Virus record (IMG/VR): IMGVR_UViG_2547132273_000021
Length of the DNA: 8,511 nt
From: a virus
Taxonomy: Duplodnaviria > Heunggongvirae > Uroviricota > Caudoviricetes
Direction: 5' to 3' (one strand)
Below the pieces are notes generated by a model that did not search any database, was not told the origin of the DNA, and was given only the letters and a program-made list of their open reading frames with translations. The translations under genes were made by a program, and so were the position numbers. This document shows positions 6,371-8,511 of this stretch, piece by piece. Numbering within the stretch: the first letter of the stretch is position 1; the number at the start of each line of letters is the position of its first letter.

Positions 6371-7117
6371 ATGTCACAGTGCTTAGCGATGCTTCAGAAA
6401 CTTAATCAGCGTGTTAAGGCTGGGAAGAATTTCTGCGGGAGTTTTGATAACCGGAACAATCCGCCTGTCTTCATAGAGCTCACTAGCTTTCAGTGCGTTA
6501 AAAAAGTTATCTACGGCTTGTTGGTAACTTCGTGCTTGTCTGCTGCTCAGGTGAGGGCGCAGTCTTCTGAAATCGTCTCTGGATATATGTGGCATATCCC
6601 GTTTTCCGTCTCGGCAACCCTCGCGGAAGGCGTCAAGGATCAGGAACAATTCATCAGCGACGGCATTGAACTCTTTCCGCTTATCTCGATTTTTGGCAAG
6701 CCAGTGTCCGAGCCAGGCGCCAAGTCCAAAAGCACTAACCGTCCAGATGAAGGTAACAAGGCGCGGGTTGGTATTGAACAGAAGAACAAACTCACTCCAG
6801 ATGATTCCCATAATTTCTGGCGACTCCTTTTTGTTCAGGTAGCGGCATTTCTTGTTGCATTTCCTGTTGGTGCTTATTTCAGCATGCGGGCAAATCTTCG
6901 CAATGACTGGCGTAAGCATATCCAGAAAGGAAGACGCCTGAAAGTACCCGTACTGGCTATGTTCTCCATCACAGGCATCAGCGATCGCATTAAACCTCGA
7001 TCTTGGCAGATATGGGAACGGAAGCATTGGTTTCAGGATATGCGGATATGCCATGGGATCGAGGCTGCTTATAGGGATGCATGGCTCTGGAAAAAGCGCG
7101 TAACTGAGAAGTGCTGA
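6371..7117 (+). CDS. Hypothetical protein, 248 aa, basic and Trp-rich with one hydrophobic segment; uncertain
   Basis: ATG at 6371 with GGAGG Shine-Dalgarno and 6-nt spacer, 1 nt after the cro stop; ends 37 nt before the Rha start, so it fits the operon. The antisense frame in the same codon register is also open (see next feature), so strand assignment is not settled. Confidence 0.4.
   Translation: MSQCLAMLQKLNQRVKAGKNFCGSFDNRNNPPVFIELTSFQCVKKVIYGLLVTSCLSAAQVRAQSSEIVSGYMWHIPFSVSATLAEGVKDQEQFISDGIELFPLISIFGKPVSEPGAKSKSTNRPDEGNKARVGIEQKNKLTPDDSHNFWRLLFVQVAAFLVAFPVGAYFSMRANLRNDWRKHIQKGRRLKVPVLAMFSITGISDRIKPRSWQIWERKHWFQDMRICHGIEAAYRDAWLWKKRVTEKC
6383..6811 (-). CDS. Alternative antisense ORF: single-pass membrane protein, 142 aa, with a charged cytoplasmic domain
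   Basis: ATG at 6809-6811 with AAGGAG about 12 nt upstream. Protein-like sequence: a TM helix (IIWSEFVLLFNTNPRLVTFIWTVSAFGLGAWLGHWLA) followed by a charged domain. Fully embedded antisense in 6371-7117; may be a shadow ORF. Confidence 0.3.
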   Translation of the reverse strand: MGIIWSEFVLLFNTNPRLVTFIWTVSAFGLGAWLGHWLAKNRDKRKEFNAVADELFLILDAFREGCRDGKRDMPHISRDDFRRLRPHLSSRQARSYQQAVDNFFNALKASELYEDRRIVPVIKTPAEILPSLNTLIKFLKHR

Positions 7118-7154
7118 ACCGTGATCCCAATAATTTATCCGTAAGGAGGTATCA

Positions 7155-7862
7155 GTGAACACCGCAATTTTTAACGATAAAGCATCCATGACCAGCGTTG
7201 AGATCGCAGAGCTGGTGGGTAGTCAGCACTCAGATGTTAAACGTAGTATCGAACGCCTGGTTGCTAAAAACGTCATCCGGAAACCGCCAATGGCTGTTTC
7301 CGAGAAAATCAATAACTTAGGTTTTAAAGTTCAATATGAGCATTACCTGTTTGAAGGAGAACAAGGTAAGCGCGACAGCATCATTGTCGTCGCACAGCTC
7401 TGCCCTGAATTCACTGCTCGCCTGGTAGATCGCTGGCGCGAACTGGAAGAACAGATCCGTAAGCCAATGAGCGAAATCGAAATGGTTGCTGCGATGGCTC
7501 TTGAAGCCGTTCGTCAGCAAAAACGCCTCGACCAGATGGAAGAGAAAGTCACCCACGTTACTGAAACCGTCGAGCAAATCAAAAGAGGCACCATACGCGA
7601 TGGTTATGCAGGCTATCGTCAGCTGGTGGCGAAAACGGGTATGTCAGATGCGAAATGCCGCAATCCGGTGAACGCATATCAGATCCCTACCGACACCCAT
7701 GAATTTATGACGCCGGATGGATTGTTGTCTCGTCGCGCGATTGTTGCAGTAGAACCCTTCATGTCTGCTTTTCATCGCATGATGAGTGAAGCAGAACCAC
7801 GAGGTACTCGCTGGTATCACCCGAAAATGGGGTTGTTCCAGGCGCTGGGCTGGCAGGTGTAA
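7155..7862 (+). CDS. rha: Phage regulatory protein Rha family (antirepressor-like), 235 aa
   Basis: GTG start at 7155 with a strong TAAGGAGG Shine-Dalgarno at 7142-7149. N-terminal motif MTSVEIAELVGSQHSDVKRSIERL followed by a YxxYLFEGEQGK...IIVVAQL region typical of the Rha domain. Stop TAA at 7860-7862. Confidence 0.85.
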   Translation: MNTAIFNDKASMTSVEIAELVGSQHSDVKRSIERLVAKNVIRKPPMAVSEKINNLGFKVQYEHYLFEGEQGKRDSIIVVAQLCPEFTARLVDRWRELEEQIRKPMSEIEMVAAMALEAVRQQKRLDQMEEKVTHVTETVEQIKRGTIRDGYAGYRQLVAKTGMSDAKCRNPVNAYQIPTDTHEFMTPDGLLSRRAIVAVEPFMSAFHRMMSEAEPRGTRWYHPKMGLFQALGWQV

Positions 7863-7881
7863 TTATGCTCACAGGTAACAC

Positions 7882-8055
7882 ATGCAAGTACTCAATCGCT
7901 GGTTCCGTGATGGAAGGGGGCGTCGCGTCCACGTTATACGCTGGGAGCCTGAAACACAGCGGGTTATTTACCTGCGTGATGGTTATCCGCATGAATGCTT
8001 CAGCCCGCTGTGGTTGTTTCGTCGTGATTTTGTTGAGTGTGAAGCACCAGCATAA
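7882..8055 (+). CDS. Small hypothetical protein, 57 aa (MQVLNRWFRDGRGRRVHVIRWEPETQRVIYLRDGYPHECFSPLWLFRRDFVECEAPA); not in the supplied ORF track
   Basis: Translated by hand: ATG at 7882, TAA at 8053-8055. Fills the otherwise gene-free gap between Rha and the ProQ-like gene on the same strand. Weak Shine-Dalgarno. Basic, Trp/Arg-rich. Confidence 0.35.
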   Translation: MQVLNRWFRDGRGRRVHVIRWEPETQRVIYLRDGYPHECFSPLWLFRRDFVECEAPA

Positions 8056-8057
8056 GC

Positions 8058-8086
8058 TTGAACTGCTTGAAAAACCTGGATATATC
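8058..8086 (+). promoter_or_regulatory. Candidate sigma70 promoter upstream of the ProQ/FinO-like gene
   Basis: -35 TTGAAC (8058-8063), 17-bp spacer, -10 TATATC (8081-8086); positioned about 30 nt upstream of the ATG at 8119. Confidence 0.3.
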
Positions 8087-8118
8087 ATTCTGATATCTAG
8101 AGTAATGGAGAATGGTAT

Positions 8119-8511
8119 ATGGGAAGAAAAGCAAGGCATCTTGCAAATAAAGAAATCATTAAAGTATTGGCTGAACGCTATCCAGAAAGCTTCTTTGTTA
8201 TTCCATACAAAGTGGTTCCGCTTGTTCACGATATCGTTCATGAGCTCTTTGCCGATCTCGGACATATACCTAAGGAATACAAAAACAGCCTTCGAAGAGC
8301 CATCTATCAGTACAAAAGCTCAGATTCATACCTTCAGTCAGTCGCGTTTGGAGAATATCGCCGCAATCTGGCGGGAAATCGTATTGTCAGAACATCCGTA
8401 TCTGAACGCGAAGAAGCCAGAGCACAACTCAAAGAACGTGGTATCTGGACTCGTCGTATGGAGCTCTTGTTCAAAGTTAATATGGGTAGAAAAGAAGCGT
8501 CTAATCGCTGA
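8119..8511 (+). CDS. ProQ/FinO-domain RNA-binding protein (RNA chaperone-like), 130 aa
   Basis: Alignable by eye to the E. coli ProQ N-terminal FinO-like domain: KEIIKVLAERYPESF / KEVIAFLAERFPHCF, conserved PL..I..L, K..LR.A...Y.SS..YL, G..R..L.GN and E.ARAQLKE. ATG at 8119 with GGAG Shine-Dalgarno 8 nt upstream. TGA stop at 8509-8511. Confidence 0.75.
   Translation: MGRKARHLANKEIIKVLAERYPESFFVIPYKVVPLVHDIVHELFADLGHIPKEYKNSLRRAIYQYKSSDSYLQSVAFGEYRRNLAGNRIVRTSVSEREEARAQLKERGIWTRRMELLFKVNMGRKEASNR

What the first reader, a model, noticed from the sequence alone, without database searches (positions are those of the whole stretch)
8119..8511. Prophage-encoded ProQ/FinO-domain RNA-binding protein, with its own candidate promoter
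The 130-aa product aligns convincingly with the N-terminal FinO-like domain of ProQ but lacks ProQ's linker and C-terminal domain; it is a minimal FinO-domain protein. A mobile-element copy could modulate host or phage sRNA and mRNA networks, in the way FinO controls conjugation through FinP and traJ. A plausible sigma70 promoter (8058-8086) suggests lysogen expression independent of the early operon.
Basis: partly seen in the sequence, partly recalled or inferred. Interest (0 to 1): 0.45.

Follow-up and report, generated by a model that had tools for sequence, protein, structure and literature searches.

The report
Prophage FinO-domain protein beside C4/IsrK switch
The gene is a real, very small FinO/ProQ-type RNA-binding protein in an E. 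coli prophage, and it and its relatives almost always sit just upstream of a small antisense-RNA switch (C4/IsrK type) that controls a phage antirepressor, so that switch is its most likely RNA partner.

Summary
Window 8119-8511 (+) encodes a 130-aa protein that passes Pfam ProQ/FinO (E 2e-13, 50.7 bits, cut-off 27). Its AlphaFold model (pLDDT 91) matches only FinO-domain structures in the PDB. It lacks the ProQ linker and C-terminal domain. RefSeq already names it 'ProQ/FINO family protein', in a phiP27-like prophage at yecE.

The proposed promoter (8058-8086) is no better than chance: about 43 equal-or-better sites per strand occur in shuffled sequence.

The new finding lies just past the window end. 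The stop codon is followed by a conserved promoter, an IsrK-type leader RNA with an intrinsic terminator, a C4 antisense RNA and a Rha-family antirepressor gene. The same order, FinO gene then C4/sRNA-Xcc1-type RNA then antirepressor, recurs in 10 of 11 homologue clusters (26-52% identity) that had enough downstream sequence. These come from Enterobacteriaceae, Acinetobacter, Comamonas and metagenomes, in different phage backbones, with six different antirepressor families. A related Stx2a phage has the same cassette without the FinO gene.

Best reading (about 0.6): a dedicated chaperone of the adjacent antisense switch, analogous to FinO/FinP. No binding or expression data exist. The protein is known by annotation; the linkage seems undescribed.

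The parts
8119..8511 (+). CDS of a 130-aa minimal FinO-domain protein (RefSeq WP_038813125.1, 'ProQ/FINO family protein'). The FinO domain covers about residues 3-107, followed by a C-terminal helix at 112-128 after a family-conserved Trp110.
   Evidence: The ORF is shown. Pfam PF04352 scores E=2e-13. The AF2 model has pLDDT 91.3. Foldseek hits are all FinO-domain structures. The family alignment has invariant P34, Y71 and A100, and near-invariant L17, P22, L35, Y65, G86, R101 and W110.
8107..8110 (+). Shine-Dalgarno GGAG, 8 nt upstream of the ATG. It indicates independent translation initiation.
   Evidence: Read directly from the sequence. The start (MGR...) is shared with the two closest homologue clusters.
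8055..8118 (+). Leader of the inserted module. Homology with Stx2a-converting phages ends at about 8054. Relative to those phages, the segment from 8055 to about 14 nt beyond the window end (leader plus FinO gene) is inserted between the DUF4222 gene and the isrK promoter.
   Evidence: The BLAST matches of Stx2 phages stop at 8054. The Stx2a phage has isrK and C4 directly after the DUF4222 gene.
8058..8086 (+). It is a chance-level match and its function is untested.
   Evidence: The consensus scan does not report it. It scores 6.2 bits and ranks 34th on the + strand; shuffled sequence gives about 43 equal-or-better sites per strand.
6077..6105 (+). PR-like early-right promoter (TTGATA, 17 nt, TAACAT) upstream of the cro-like gene. 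It is the best-scoring promoter-like site on the + strand and a possible source of read-through transcription into the FinO gene. This is an inference.
   Evidence: It is the only promoter-like site on the + strand of the window portion scanned (5889-8511), and the top score in the whole-window scan. No strong + strand terminator lies between it and 8119.

Best explanation
The gene encodes a minimal FinO-domain RNA chaperone that works on the antisense-RNA switch immediately downstream of it.

That switch is a P1 immI-like, Gifsy-1 isrK-like cassette. In the source genome it lies just outside the window. It consists of a promoter, an IsrK-type leader RNA that carries the a1b1 decoy sites and ends in an intrinsic terminator, a C4 antisense RNA, a second copy of the target site, and then a Rha-family antirepressor gene.

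The proposed mechanism is inferred, not shown. The FinO domain clamps the terminator hairpin and 3' U-tail of the IsrK-type RNA, and of any upstream transcript (its own mRNA included) that ends at that terminator. This would protect the RNA from 3' exonucleases and speed its pairing with the complementary single-stranded parts of the C4 RNA or the long read-through transcript. That sets how much antirepressor is translated, and so biases the choice between maintaining lysogeny and induction.

The direction of the effect (pro-lysogeny or pro-induction) cannot be decided from sequence.

Shown here: the FinO-domain identity and fold, the RNA cassette, and the conserved linkage.

Inferred: RNA binding, which RNA is bound, and the regulatory outcome.
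For: (1) The protein is a genuine FinO domain. The RNA-contact residues defined in the RocC-terminator crystal structure are retained. RocC Arg75, Tyr87, Arg97 and Lys119 (the last position is most often Gln or Arg in the family) map to R59, Y71, R81 and Q103 (alignment; residues from PMC9674577). Y71 is invariant across the 18 aligned members of the subfamily.

(2) Rfam finds isrK (62.8 bits, cut-off 50) 50 nt after the stop codon and C4 (80.1 bits, cut-off 45) 151 nt after it, on the same strand.

(3) Of 11 homologue clusters (26-52% identity) with at least 200 nt of downstream sequence, 10 have a C4 or sRNA-Xcc1 RNA downstream on the same strand. Nine of these lie within about 190 nt and one at 546 nt. 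P0049 and P0050 are close relatives in the same kind of prophage, so merging them gives 9 of 10. Outside the stretch downstream of the FinO gene (tandem copies included), no other C4-type hit at gathering score was found in the roughly 160 kb of flanks scanned.

(4) The gene after the RNA belongs to six different antirepressor-type families: Rha, Derepression PF25738, Bro-N, AntA, P22_AR_N and ORF6N. The phage backbones and hosts also differ (lambdoid, P2-like, tail-module islands; E. coli, Salmonella, Acinetobacter, Comamonas). The stable pairing is therefore FinO with the RNA.

(5) The cassettes look functional and have lineage-specific specificity. In 8 of the 11 cassette units examined, an 8-14 nt repeat flanks the RNA, and its 6-9 nt reverse complement lies inside the RNA, with a different sequence each time. 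All ten cassette-bearing lineages have a terminator-like hairpin plus T-run just upstream of the C4-type RNA, which is the canonical FinO-domain ligand. Two of these were read by eye from the printed sequence and one (L024) has an interrupted T-run.

(6) Linkage is physically tight. The cassette promoter starts 10-16 nt after the FinO stop in E. coli, and in Comamonas the stop codon directly abuts the -10 hexamer.

(7) Host ProQ, also a FinO-domain protein, is reported to associate with IsrK in Salmonella (PMC5391140).

(8) Precedents exist for mobile-element FinO-domain proteins that serve one cis-encoded antisense RNA: FinO/FinP-traJ and FopA/Inc-repZ (PMC9977716).
Against: There are no expression, binding or genetic data for this protein or any member of its subfamily.

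One cluster (P0003, 46% identity, locus L016) has no C4-type RNA within 339 nt and faces a convergent gene. In Acinetobacter (L023) a reverse-strand ORF separates the gene from the cassette.

Most C4/IsrK cassettes have no FinO gene. Examples are phiP27 and the Stx2a phage. Only 14 of 5426 complete E. coli genomes carry the gene. The protein is therefore dispensable for the switch in general.

The homologue clusters are not phylogenetically independent, because gene and cassette may simply have been inherited together.

The N-cap Arg (R59) is R or K in only 11 of 18 subfamily members. The near-universal turn Gly (RocC Gly52) is Asp38 here.

The C4 RNA itself has a processed 3' end, not a terminator end, so it is a less typical FinO ligand.
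Confidence: 0.6

Rival explanations
1. This is the first reader's reading: a general, trans-acting RNA-binding protein. Once expressed from the prophage, it binds many host and phage terminator-containing RNAs. It would compete with or supplement chromosomal ProQ and so rewire host sRNA and mRNA networks, with no special relation to the neighbouring cassette.
For: FinO domains recognise a generic feature, a terminator hairpin with a 3' tail (PMC9674577). Minimal FinO-domain proteins such as N. meningitidis ProQ are global binders (abstract of PMC11912907). The closest sequence match among solved structures is the N-terminal domain of the global binder E. coli ProQ.
Against: A global role does not explain why the gene stays glued to C4-type cassettes across 26-52% protein identity, different phages and different bacterial classes. 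The mobile-element FinO-domain proteins characterised so far (FinO, FopA) have narrow target sets. The two readings are not mutually exclusive.
Confidence: 0.2
2. The linkage is hitch-hiking without function. The gene is a moron-like passenger that inserted at a recombination-prone module boundary upstream of the cassette promoter and has been co-inherited since. Its real function lies elsewhere or is unknown.
For: The gene is an insertion relative to related phages that have the same cassette. It is rare. One homologue stands alone (L016). Cassettes work without it.
Against: Phage genomes reshuffle at gene boundaries. Here the gene downstream of the RNA has been swapped among six antirepressor families and the surrounding backbone has changed completely, yet the FinO-RNA junction persists. 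The RNA has diverged into separate Rfam families (C4 and sRNA-Xcc1) while remaining adjacent to the gene.
Confidence: 0.15
3. The ORF is not functional: a decaying or spurious reading frame.
For: PGAP leaves it unannotated in 10 of the 14 genomes that carry the identical DNA.
Against: It scores above the Pfam gathering threshold, gives a confident fold, has conserved length (113-142 aa) and conserved core residues across about 20 clusters, and has a good Shine-Dalgarno sequence.
Confidence: 0.02

Closest known systems
FinO of F-like plasmids (with FinP antisense RNA and traJ mRNA)
   Same: Both are FinO-domain proteins encoded by a mobile element. Both sit near a cis-encoded, stem-loop antisense RNA that gates translation of a master activator of the element's 'go' decision: conjugation there, an antirepressor here. 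The fold match to 1dvo has Foldseek probability 1.00.
   Different: Sequence similarity is very low. NCBIfam FinO scores 19.7 bits against a cut-off of 136, and tblastn finds nothing in 72,556 plasmids. The protein here has no long N-terminal helix, sits in a phage rather than a plasmid, and its presumed RNA partner is of a different family (C4/IsrK).
FopA of plasmid pCol1B9 (with Inc antisense RNA and repZ)
   Same: FopA is a small FinO-domain protein on a mobile element with a single dedicated antisense RNA. [quoted passage not shown]
   Different: There is no detectable close relationship, since tblastn against plasmids finds no hit. FopA controls plasmid replication, not a phage antirepressor.
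Minimal FinO-domain proteins NMB1681 (N. meningitidis ProQ) and Lpp1663 (L. pneumophila), and the RocC FinO domain
   Same: They are of similar size and have the same fold: TM-scores of 0.54-0.66 (normalised to the query) and 0.57-0.80 (normalised to the target) to 7rgt, 7rgu, 6s10 and 3mw6. The 3'-nucleotide pocket residues Tyr and Arg are conserved.
   Different: Those proteins are chromosomal. They are either global binders or, in RocC, specific for RocR. This subfamily has its own C-terminal helix with a conserved G-x-W motif and is found in prophages.
E. coli and Salmonella ProQ
   Same: It is the best sequence match among solved structures (5nb9, E=1.7e-5). ProQ is reported to associate with IsrK.
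   Different: The protein here has no linker and no Tudor-like C-terminal domain. The NCBIfam ProQ equivalog scores 41 bits against a cut-off of 127. ProQ residues R32, K35, R62 and K101 are not conserved (V33, V36, Y63 and A102 in the alignment). The ProQ numbering is from my own knowledge of the sequence.
P1/P7 immI (C4 RNA, a1b1/a2b2, icd-ant); Gifsy-1 isrK-orf45-anrP; P4 CI RNA with seqA/seqC
   Same: The adjacent cassette belongs to this kind. It has Rfam C4 and isrK hits above gathering score, flanking repeated target sites complementary to the RNA, and a downstream antirepressor. The Gifsy-1 mechanism and the P4 parallel are described in PMC4825925.
   Different: None of these systems is described as having a protein cofactor encoded with it. 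In this locus no icd- or orf45-like ORF was evident between C4 and the Rha-family start, apart from an AUG-UGG-UGA mini-ORF read by eye.

Membership tests
ProQ/FinO domain family (Pfam PF04352) | Profile HMM score above the curated gathering threshold | tested here: met
   The score is 50.7 bits against 27, E=2e-13, covering profile positions 4-99 of 109.
ProQ/FinO domain family (Pfam PF04352) | FinO fold: a helical bundle with a beta-hairpin | tested here: met
   The AF2 model has pLDDT 91.3, helices at 3-20, 39-47, 52-67, 69-77 and 94-106, and strands at 80-82 and 88-91. The top 26 PDB Foldseek hits are all FinO-domain proteins. This rests on a model, not an experimental structure.
ProQ/FinO domain family (Pfam PF04352) | 3'-nucleotide pocket residues (RocC Tyr87 and Arg97) and N-cap Arg75 | tested here: met
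   These map to Y71, R81 and R59 in the HMMER alignment to RocC and ProQ. The residue roles come from PMC9674577. Y71 is invariant in the subfamily, the R81 column is K or R in 14 of 18 members, and the R59 column is K or R in 11 of 18.
ProQ/FinO domain family (Pfam PF04352) | Nearly invariant Gly in the beta-turn that forms the pocket (RocC Gly52, ProQ Gly37) | tested here: not met
   The aligned residue is Asp38. In the subfamily this column is Gly in 5 of 18 members, Asp in 5, and otherwise N, S, K, H, T or A. Asp and Asn can also occupy turn positions, so the consequence is unclear.
ProQ/FinO domain family (Pfam PF04352) | Binds RNA hairpins with a 3' single-stranded tail | not testable with these tools
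   This needs a gel-shift assay or CLIP.
ProQ proper (NCBIfam NF003434 equivalog) | Full-length architecture (FinO domain, linker, Tudor-like C-terminal domain) and a score above the cut-off | tested here: not met
   The score is 41.2 bits against a cut-off of 127. The protein is only 130 aa and the match covers profile positions 6-105 of 205.
FinO (NCBIfam NF010317) | Score above the subfamily cut-off | tested here: not met
   The score is 19.7 bits against a cut-off of 136. tblastn finds no hit in PLSDB plasmids.
Dedicated mobile-element FinO-domain chaperone with a cis-encoded antisense RNA partner (FinO/FinP, FopA/Inc type) | A structured antisense RNA with a terminator is encoded next to the gene on the same element, and the linkage is conserved | tested here: met
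   isrK and C4 lie 50-240 nt downstream. C4-type RNA follows the gene in 10 of 11 homologue clusters. Terminator-like hairpins with T-runs are present.
Dedicated mobile-element FinO-domain chaperone with a cis-encoded antisense RNA partner (FinO/FinP, FopA/Inc type) | The protein binds, stabilises and promotes pairing of that RNA | not testable with these tools
   There is only indirect support: ProQ is reported to associate with IsrK in Salmonella.
P1 immI-type C4 antisense system (applies to the neighbouring cassette, not the protein) | C4 RNA, upstream and downstream target repeats complementary to it, and a downstream antirepressor gene | tested here: met
   C4 scores 80.1 bits (cut-off 45) and isrK 62.8 bits (cut-off 50). 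The repeat GATTGGCGTCC occurs at L002 11695 and 11863, with its complement ACGCCAA inside C4 at 11832. A Phage_pRha gene follows. The c4-a1b1 model itself scores only 21.7 bits against a cut-off of 46.7 at this locus, but passes in L013 and L006.

The most novel reading that the evidence does not exclude
This small clade of prophage FinO-domain proteins is the dedicated protein cofactor of C4/IsrK/Xcc1-type antisense switches. That would make it the first protein component assigned to the P1 immI-like class of RNA immunity systems, and the first phage-encoded FinO-domain protein with a defined RNA partner. By binding the IsrK-type terminator it would tune antirepressor synthesis, and so tune prophage induction or cross-induction of co-resident prophages. 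It might also make the switch independent of host ProQ or Hfq.
Probability: 0.5. Interest if true: 0.65.

Novelty: new member of a known kind. Interest (0 to 1): 0.55.

Why it matters
FinO-domain proteins are a major class of bacterial RNA chaperones. The phage-borne members are acknowledged in reviews but uncharacterised, and one paper that looked for an RNA partner next to a phage FinO gene found none.

C4/IsrK-type antisense switches gate antirepressors that decide prophage induction. The window's close relatives include Shiga-toxin-converting phages. These switches have been treated as RNA-only devices.

A conserved gene-RNA pairing gives a concrete, cheap experiment: gel shift, RIP-seq and a translational fusion. 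It offers a natural system for asking how a FinO domain chooses its RNA. It also offers a possible handle on how some prophages tune their induction.

If the linkage proves non-functional, the finding reduces to a correctly annotated but rare accessory gene.

Tried and rejected
- tblastn of the protein against 50,697 phage records and 72,556 plasmids found no match at E<=1e-3. The protein is therefore not a close relative of FinO, FopA or any deposited phage protein.
- The word-indexed protein search found only the protein's own cluster with the single sequence, and 8 proteins with the family profile.
- The search for related loci failed outright with the wider alignments. It found nothing in genome contigs, metagenome contigs or viral contigs for other clusters. 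Only four near-identical IMG/VR loci came back. The synteny sample could therefore not be enlarged beyond 11 informative clusters, and all 12 contig look-ups are used.
- RNAduplex of C4 against IsrK and the downstream leader gave long, uninterpretable 'duplexes'. I replaced it with an exact repeat-and-complement search.
- PADLOC gave no hit for the protein or for two of its upstream neighbours, so it is not a known defence component.
- Upstream neighbours of the homologues share no consistent family.
- Literature searches for C4 antisense RNA with FinO, FinO with antirepressor or anti-repressor, and FinO with lysogeny and phage-encoded found no paper that links the two. The search 'ProQ' with 'immI' was useless because of word-start matching.
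- I considered and rejected the idea that the gene is translationally coupled to the downstream 'Rha' CDS that PGAP starts at L002 11615. That start runs through the isrK and C4 RNA genes and is almost certainly over-extended.
Full report
**1. What is in the sequence**

Window 8119-8511 (+) is an ATG-initiated ORF of 130 codons. Its TGA stop is the last triplet of the window. A GGAG lies 8 nt upstream of the ATG.

The product matches Pfam PF04352 (ProQ/FinO) with E=2e-13 and 50.7 bits against a gathering score of 27, over nearly the whole profile. NCBIfam gives sub-threshold matches to ProQ (41 bits, cut-off 127) and FinO (19.7 bits, cut-off 136). It is therefore a family member but neither ProQ nor FinO proper. 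PHROGs gives only a family of unknown function (phrog_21591, 1.5e-6).

Among solved structures, the best sequence match is the N-terminal FinO domain of E. coli ProQ (5nb9, 1.7e-5), then Lpp1663 and RocC. An AlphaFold2 model built on an eight-sequence alignment is confident (pLDDT 91.3, pTM 0.83). Its 26 best Foldseek matches in the PDB are all FinO-domain structures: RocC, Lpp1663, FinO and NMB1681. The next hit has E>2.

The residues that contact the terminator in the RocC-RocR crystal structure (PMC9674577) map as follows in the HMMER alignments:

| RocC residue | Role | Window residue |
|---|---|---|
| Arg75 | N-cap | R59 |
| Tyr87, Arg97 | 3'-nucleotide pocket | Y71, R81 |
| Lys119 (position is most often Gln or Arg in the family) | contacts a tail base (U26) beside the pocket | Q103 |
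| Gly52 | beta-turn | Asp38 |

Only the turn glycine is not conserved. There is no ProQ linker or C-terminal domain. After the FinO domain there is a single helix (112-128) preceded by a conserved Trp.

**2. Where it is**

The window is 100% identical to four E. coli chromosomes (GB089, 09-00049, OkiPb01715, N96). There it is the left arm of a prophage integrated next to yecE. The order is integrase, excisionase, early-left genes, a LexA-like (S24) repressor, a cro-like gene, a Rha-family gene, a DUF4222 gene, the FinO gene, then a second Rha-family gene and replication genes. Positions 1-7842 are 96.8% identical to phage phiP27.

RefSeq names the protein 'ProQ/FINO family protein' (WP_038813125.1) in four genomes and leaves it unannotated in the other ten that carry identical DNA.

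The gene is rare. It occurs in 14 of 5426 complete E. coli genomes, all at 100% identity. tblastn finds no hit in 50,697 phage records or 72,556 plasmids. An exhaustive phmmer search of 1.84 billion cluster representatives gives only 47 hits at E<=1e-3. About 20 of these are similarly small proteins of 113-142 aa. These form a subfamily with invariant P34, Y71 and A100 and a conserved G-x-W before the last helix.

**3. The promoter claim**

TTGAAC, 17 nt, TATATC (8058-8086) matches 8 of 12 consensus positions and lacks the near-invariant T at the end of the -10 hexamer. The consensus scan does not list it. In a position-weight scan it scores 6.2 bits and ranks 34th on the + strand. Mononucleotide shuffles of the window yield on average 43 sites per strand that score at least as well. 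It is not evidence for anything.

The best + strand site is the PR-like TTGATA, 17 nt, TAACAT at 6077-6105. No convincing + strand terminator lies between it and the gene, so co-transcription with the early-right operon is at least as likely.

On the other hand, several homologues follow a terminator or a divergently transcribed gene and must have their own promoters (L016, L018, L023, L025). An own promoter here therefore cannot be excluded.

**4.

I read on in the GB089 record (locus L002; window position = L002 position minus 3111). The elements after the stop codon (L002 11620-11622), are:

| Element | L002 coordinates | Evidence |
|---|---|---|
| Promoter-like pair TTGATT, 17 nt, TACACT | 11638-11666 | read from sequence |
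| isrK | 11672-11748 | 62.8 bits, cut-off 50 |
| Intrinsic terminator at the end of isrK (AACCGCG-CUCAU-GCGGUU, then U6) | within isrK | read from sequence and scan |
| C4 antisense RNA | 11773-11860 | 80.1 bits, cut-off 45 |
| Second copy of GATTGGCGTCC (first copy inside isrK at 11695) | 11863 | repeat search |
| Complement ACGCCAA, in the single-stranded linker of C4 | 11832 | repeat search |
| Phage_pRha gene, probable true start ATG (MTTLPTL...) | 11916 | ORF list and Pfam |

This is the architecture of the P1/P7 immI region and of the Gifsy-1 isrK-orf45-anrP locus. In Gifsy-1, the short terminated IsrK RNA acts in trans on the read-through transcript to switch on antirepressor translation and prophage induction. 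A processed RNA downstream of IsrK (STnc1160) was compared by the authors to the P4 CI RNA (PMC4825925).

The promoter-like pair sits at the same distance upstream of most of the 12 isrK-type units I looked at, with sequence variation. This argues that it is real.

**5. The gene is an add-on to that cassette**

Stx2a-converting phage Stx2_12E129_yecE shares the DUF4222 gene up to window position 8054. It then continues directly with the same promoter, isrK and C4. Relative to it, the 64-nt leader, the FinO ORF and 14 nt more are inserted precisely between the DUF4222 stop and the cassette promoter. phiP27 also has isrK and C4 but no FinO gene.

**6. The linkage is conserved**

The downstream-gene families come and from the Pfam columns. 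Identities are those reported by the phmmer search, except for P0049 and P0050, which come.

| Cluster (identity to query) | Locus and setting | RNA downstream, same strand | Next gene |
|---|---|---|---|
| Window family | L002 and others, lambdoid prophage | isrK + C4 | Rha family |
| P0002 (52%) | L013-15, P2-like prophage at cpxP | a1b1/isrK + C4 | 'Derepression' family |
| P0005 (40%) | L018, beside defence-like genes | isrK-like + C4 | contig ends |
| P0006 (36%) | L022, Salmonella lambdoid nin region | two sRNA-Xcc1 units | ORF6N (after each unit) |
| P0051 (cluster of P0009, 35%) | L025 | C4 | Bro-N |
| P0010 (34%) | L023, Acinetobacter P2-like prophage | C4, 546 nt downstream, beyond a reverse ORF | not determined |
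| P0054 (cluster of P0018, 36%) | L024, Comamonas | a1b1-like + C4 | Rha family |
| P0019 (33%) | L007 | sRNA-Xcc1 | P22 antirepressor N-domain |
| P0050 (32%) | L008-11, Salmonella tail-module island | sRNA-Xcc1 | Bro-N |
| P0049 (32%) | L012, same kind of island | two sRNA-Xcc1 units | AntA |
| P0003 (46%) | L016 | none within 339 nt | convergent gene |

Two further contigs (L017, L019) end less than 100 nt after the stop and are uninformative.

The tally is 10 of 11 clusters. P0049 and P0050 are close relatives in the same kind of prophage, so merging them gives 9 of 10.

In the roughly 160 kb scanned around these genes, no other C4-type hit at gathering score occurs outside the stretch downstream of the FinO gene, where some loci carry tandem copies. 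Chance co-occurrence is therefore negligible. Shared ancestry of gene plus cassette is the real alternative.

Against pure co-inheritance, three things around the pair have changed. The gene after the RNA belongs to six different antirepressor-type families. The phage backbone and bacterial class differ. The RNA itself has diverged into two Rfam families that share one architecture, a closing stem around two hairpins followed by a CCACC tail.

In 8 of the 11 cassette units examined, an 8-14 nt repeat flanks the RNA and its complement lies inside it, with a different sequence in each lineage. These are working, heteroimmune switches.

Every cassette-bearing lineage has a terminator-like hairpin followed by a T-run just upstream of the C4-type RNA. 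Two of these were read by eye from the printed sequence, and the T-run in L024 is interrupted.

**7. How it most likely works**

FinO domains grip the base of a terminator hairpin and bury the 3'-terminal nucleotide of its U-tail in the Tyr/Arg pocket. In the cassette, the only species with such an end is the IsrK-type leader. Any transcript from upstream that stops at the same terminator has it too, which would include the FinO mRNA itself.

Host ProQ is reported to associate with IsrK and IsrJ in Salmonella (PMC5391140). FinO and FopA are precedents for mobile-element FinO-domain proteins that stabilise one antisense RNA and accelerate its pairing.

I therefore propose that the protein binds the IsrK-type terminator, stabilises the RNA and promotes its pairing with the C4 RNA or the read-through mRNA. 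This would set antirepressor output.

Two regulatory outcomes remain open:

- If the gene is expressed only from PR after repressor cleavage, it would act as a feed-forward element of induction.
- If it is expressed in the lysogen, it could equally reinforce C4-mediated silencing.

All of this section is inference. The fold, the RNA genes and the synteny are shown.

**8. Comparison and novelty**

The protein is a member of the ProQ/FinO domain family. The HMM, fold and pocket residues are met; the turn glycine is not. It is not ProQ or FinO in the narrow sense.

Reviews already state that FinO-domain proteins occur on phages. Genome papers list them in phages and satellites without function, and one notes explicitly that no partner RNA was evident. 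I found no paper in the searchable library that links FinO-domain proteins to C4/IsrK cassettes or antirepressor control.

So the gene is known by annotation. The conserved pairing and the candidate partner appear to be new, and would add a phage member to the FinO/FinP-type class.

**9. Verdict**

The finding becomes more interesting once the downstream cassette is seen. Interest is 0.55, and confidence in the functional coupling is about 0.6.

Noticed in passing
L002 11615-11915 (just beyond the window end) and L001 20480-21532: PGAP's 'Rha family' CDS in GB089 starts at 11615 and runs through the isrK and C4 RNA genes. Pfam Phage_ASH (PF10554) matches residues 16-110 of that translation, which is the translated RNA genes. 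In strain N96 a 350-aa 'ash family protein' spans isrK+C4 units, and its Phage_ASH match (residues 24-112) coincides with the first unit. The Ash protein family therefore looks, at least in part, like a spurious translation of C4/IsrK-type RNA genes, and the Rha start is probably the ATG at L002 11916.
   Followed up: partly
L001 20561-21768; L006 4443-5000; L012 5459-5757; L022 3502-4143: The antisense cassettes occur as tandem arrays downstream of the FinO gene. There are three isrK+C4 units in E. coli N96, two in an IMG/VR contig, and two sRNA-Xcc1 units in two Salmonella-type loci. The second unit in N96 and L006 has a different promoter and leader sequence. Why the arrays exist is unexplained.
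   Followed up: partly
window 6371-7117 (+) and 6383-7189 (-): Two long ORFs (248 and 268 aa) overlap almost completely on opposite strands. E. coli RefSeq records annotate the + strand ORF, while the phiP27 RefSeq record annotates a - strand ORF (P27p13) in the corresponding region. Neither has a Pfam hit tested here, except that the + strand product gave none.
   Followed up: no
window 1615-2019 (-): The window matches N96 in one piece, but GB089 only in two pieces, with about 110 extra bases in GB089. In N96 the DUF4222 gene here is flagged as an incomplete pseudogene, whereas GB089 has an intact one. The window therefore carries a small deletion in an early-left gene.
   Followed up: no
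window 7155-7862 and 7882-8055, with L002 11916-12478: The early-right region carries two Rha-family genes, one before and one after the FinO-C4 module. The prophage also carries two DUF4222 genes, one in each arm.
   Followed up: no
L018 1-3866: The homologue P0005 lies divergently next to a GmrSD_N-domain gene and an AAA_15/AAA_21 ATPase gene, a defence-island-like neighbourhood, while still being followed by isrK-like and C4 RNAs.
   Followed up: no
L007 4439-4957; L019 12-278: In two distant homologue loci, small proteins with weak CCDC90-like/DUF1640 matches (below Pfam's cut-off) lie immediately upstream of the FinO gene. This was not seen in the other loci.
   Followed up: no
L009 5458-5483 and L012 equivalent (upstream of the FinO gene in the Salmonella tail-module islands): A conserved inverted repeat (ACTGGCGAC...GTTGCCAGT) without a T-run lies between the preceding 182-aa ORF and the FinO gene. 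It could be an operator or an RNA structure.
   Followed up: no
window 8131-8144 (-): A short terminator-like hairpin with a T-run lies on the minus strand inside the 5' end of the FinO ORF (GCAAGATGCCTTGC, then TTTTCTTCCC). It has only 5 pairs, and the number of such sites in the region is at shuffle expectation, so it is probably chance.
   Followed up: no
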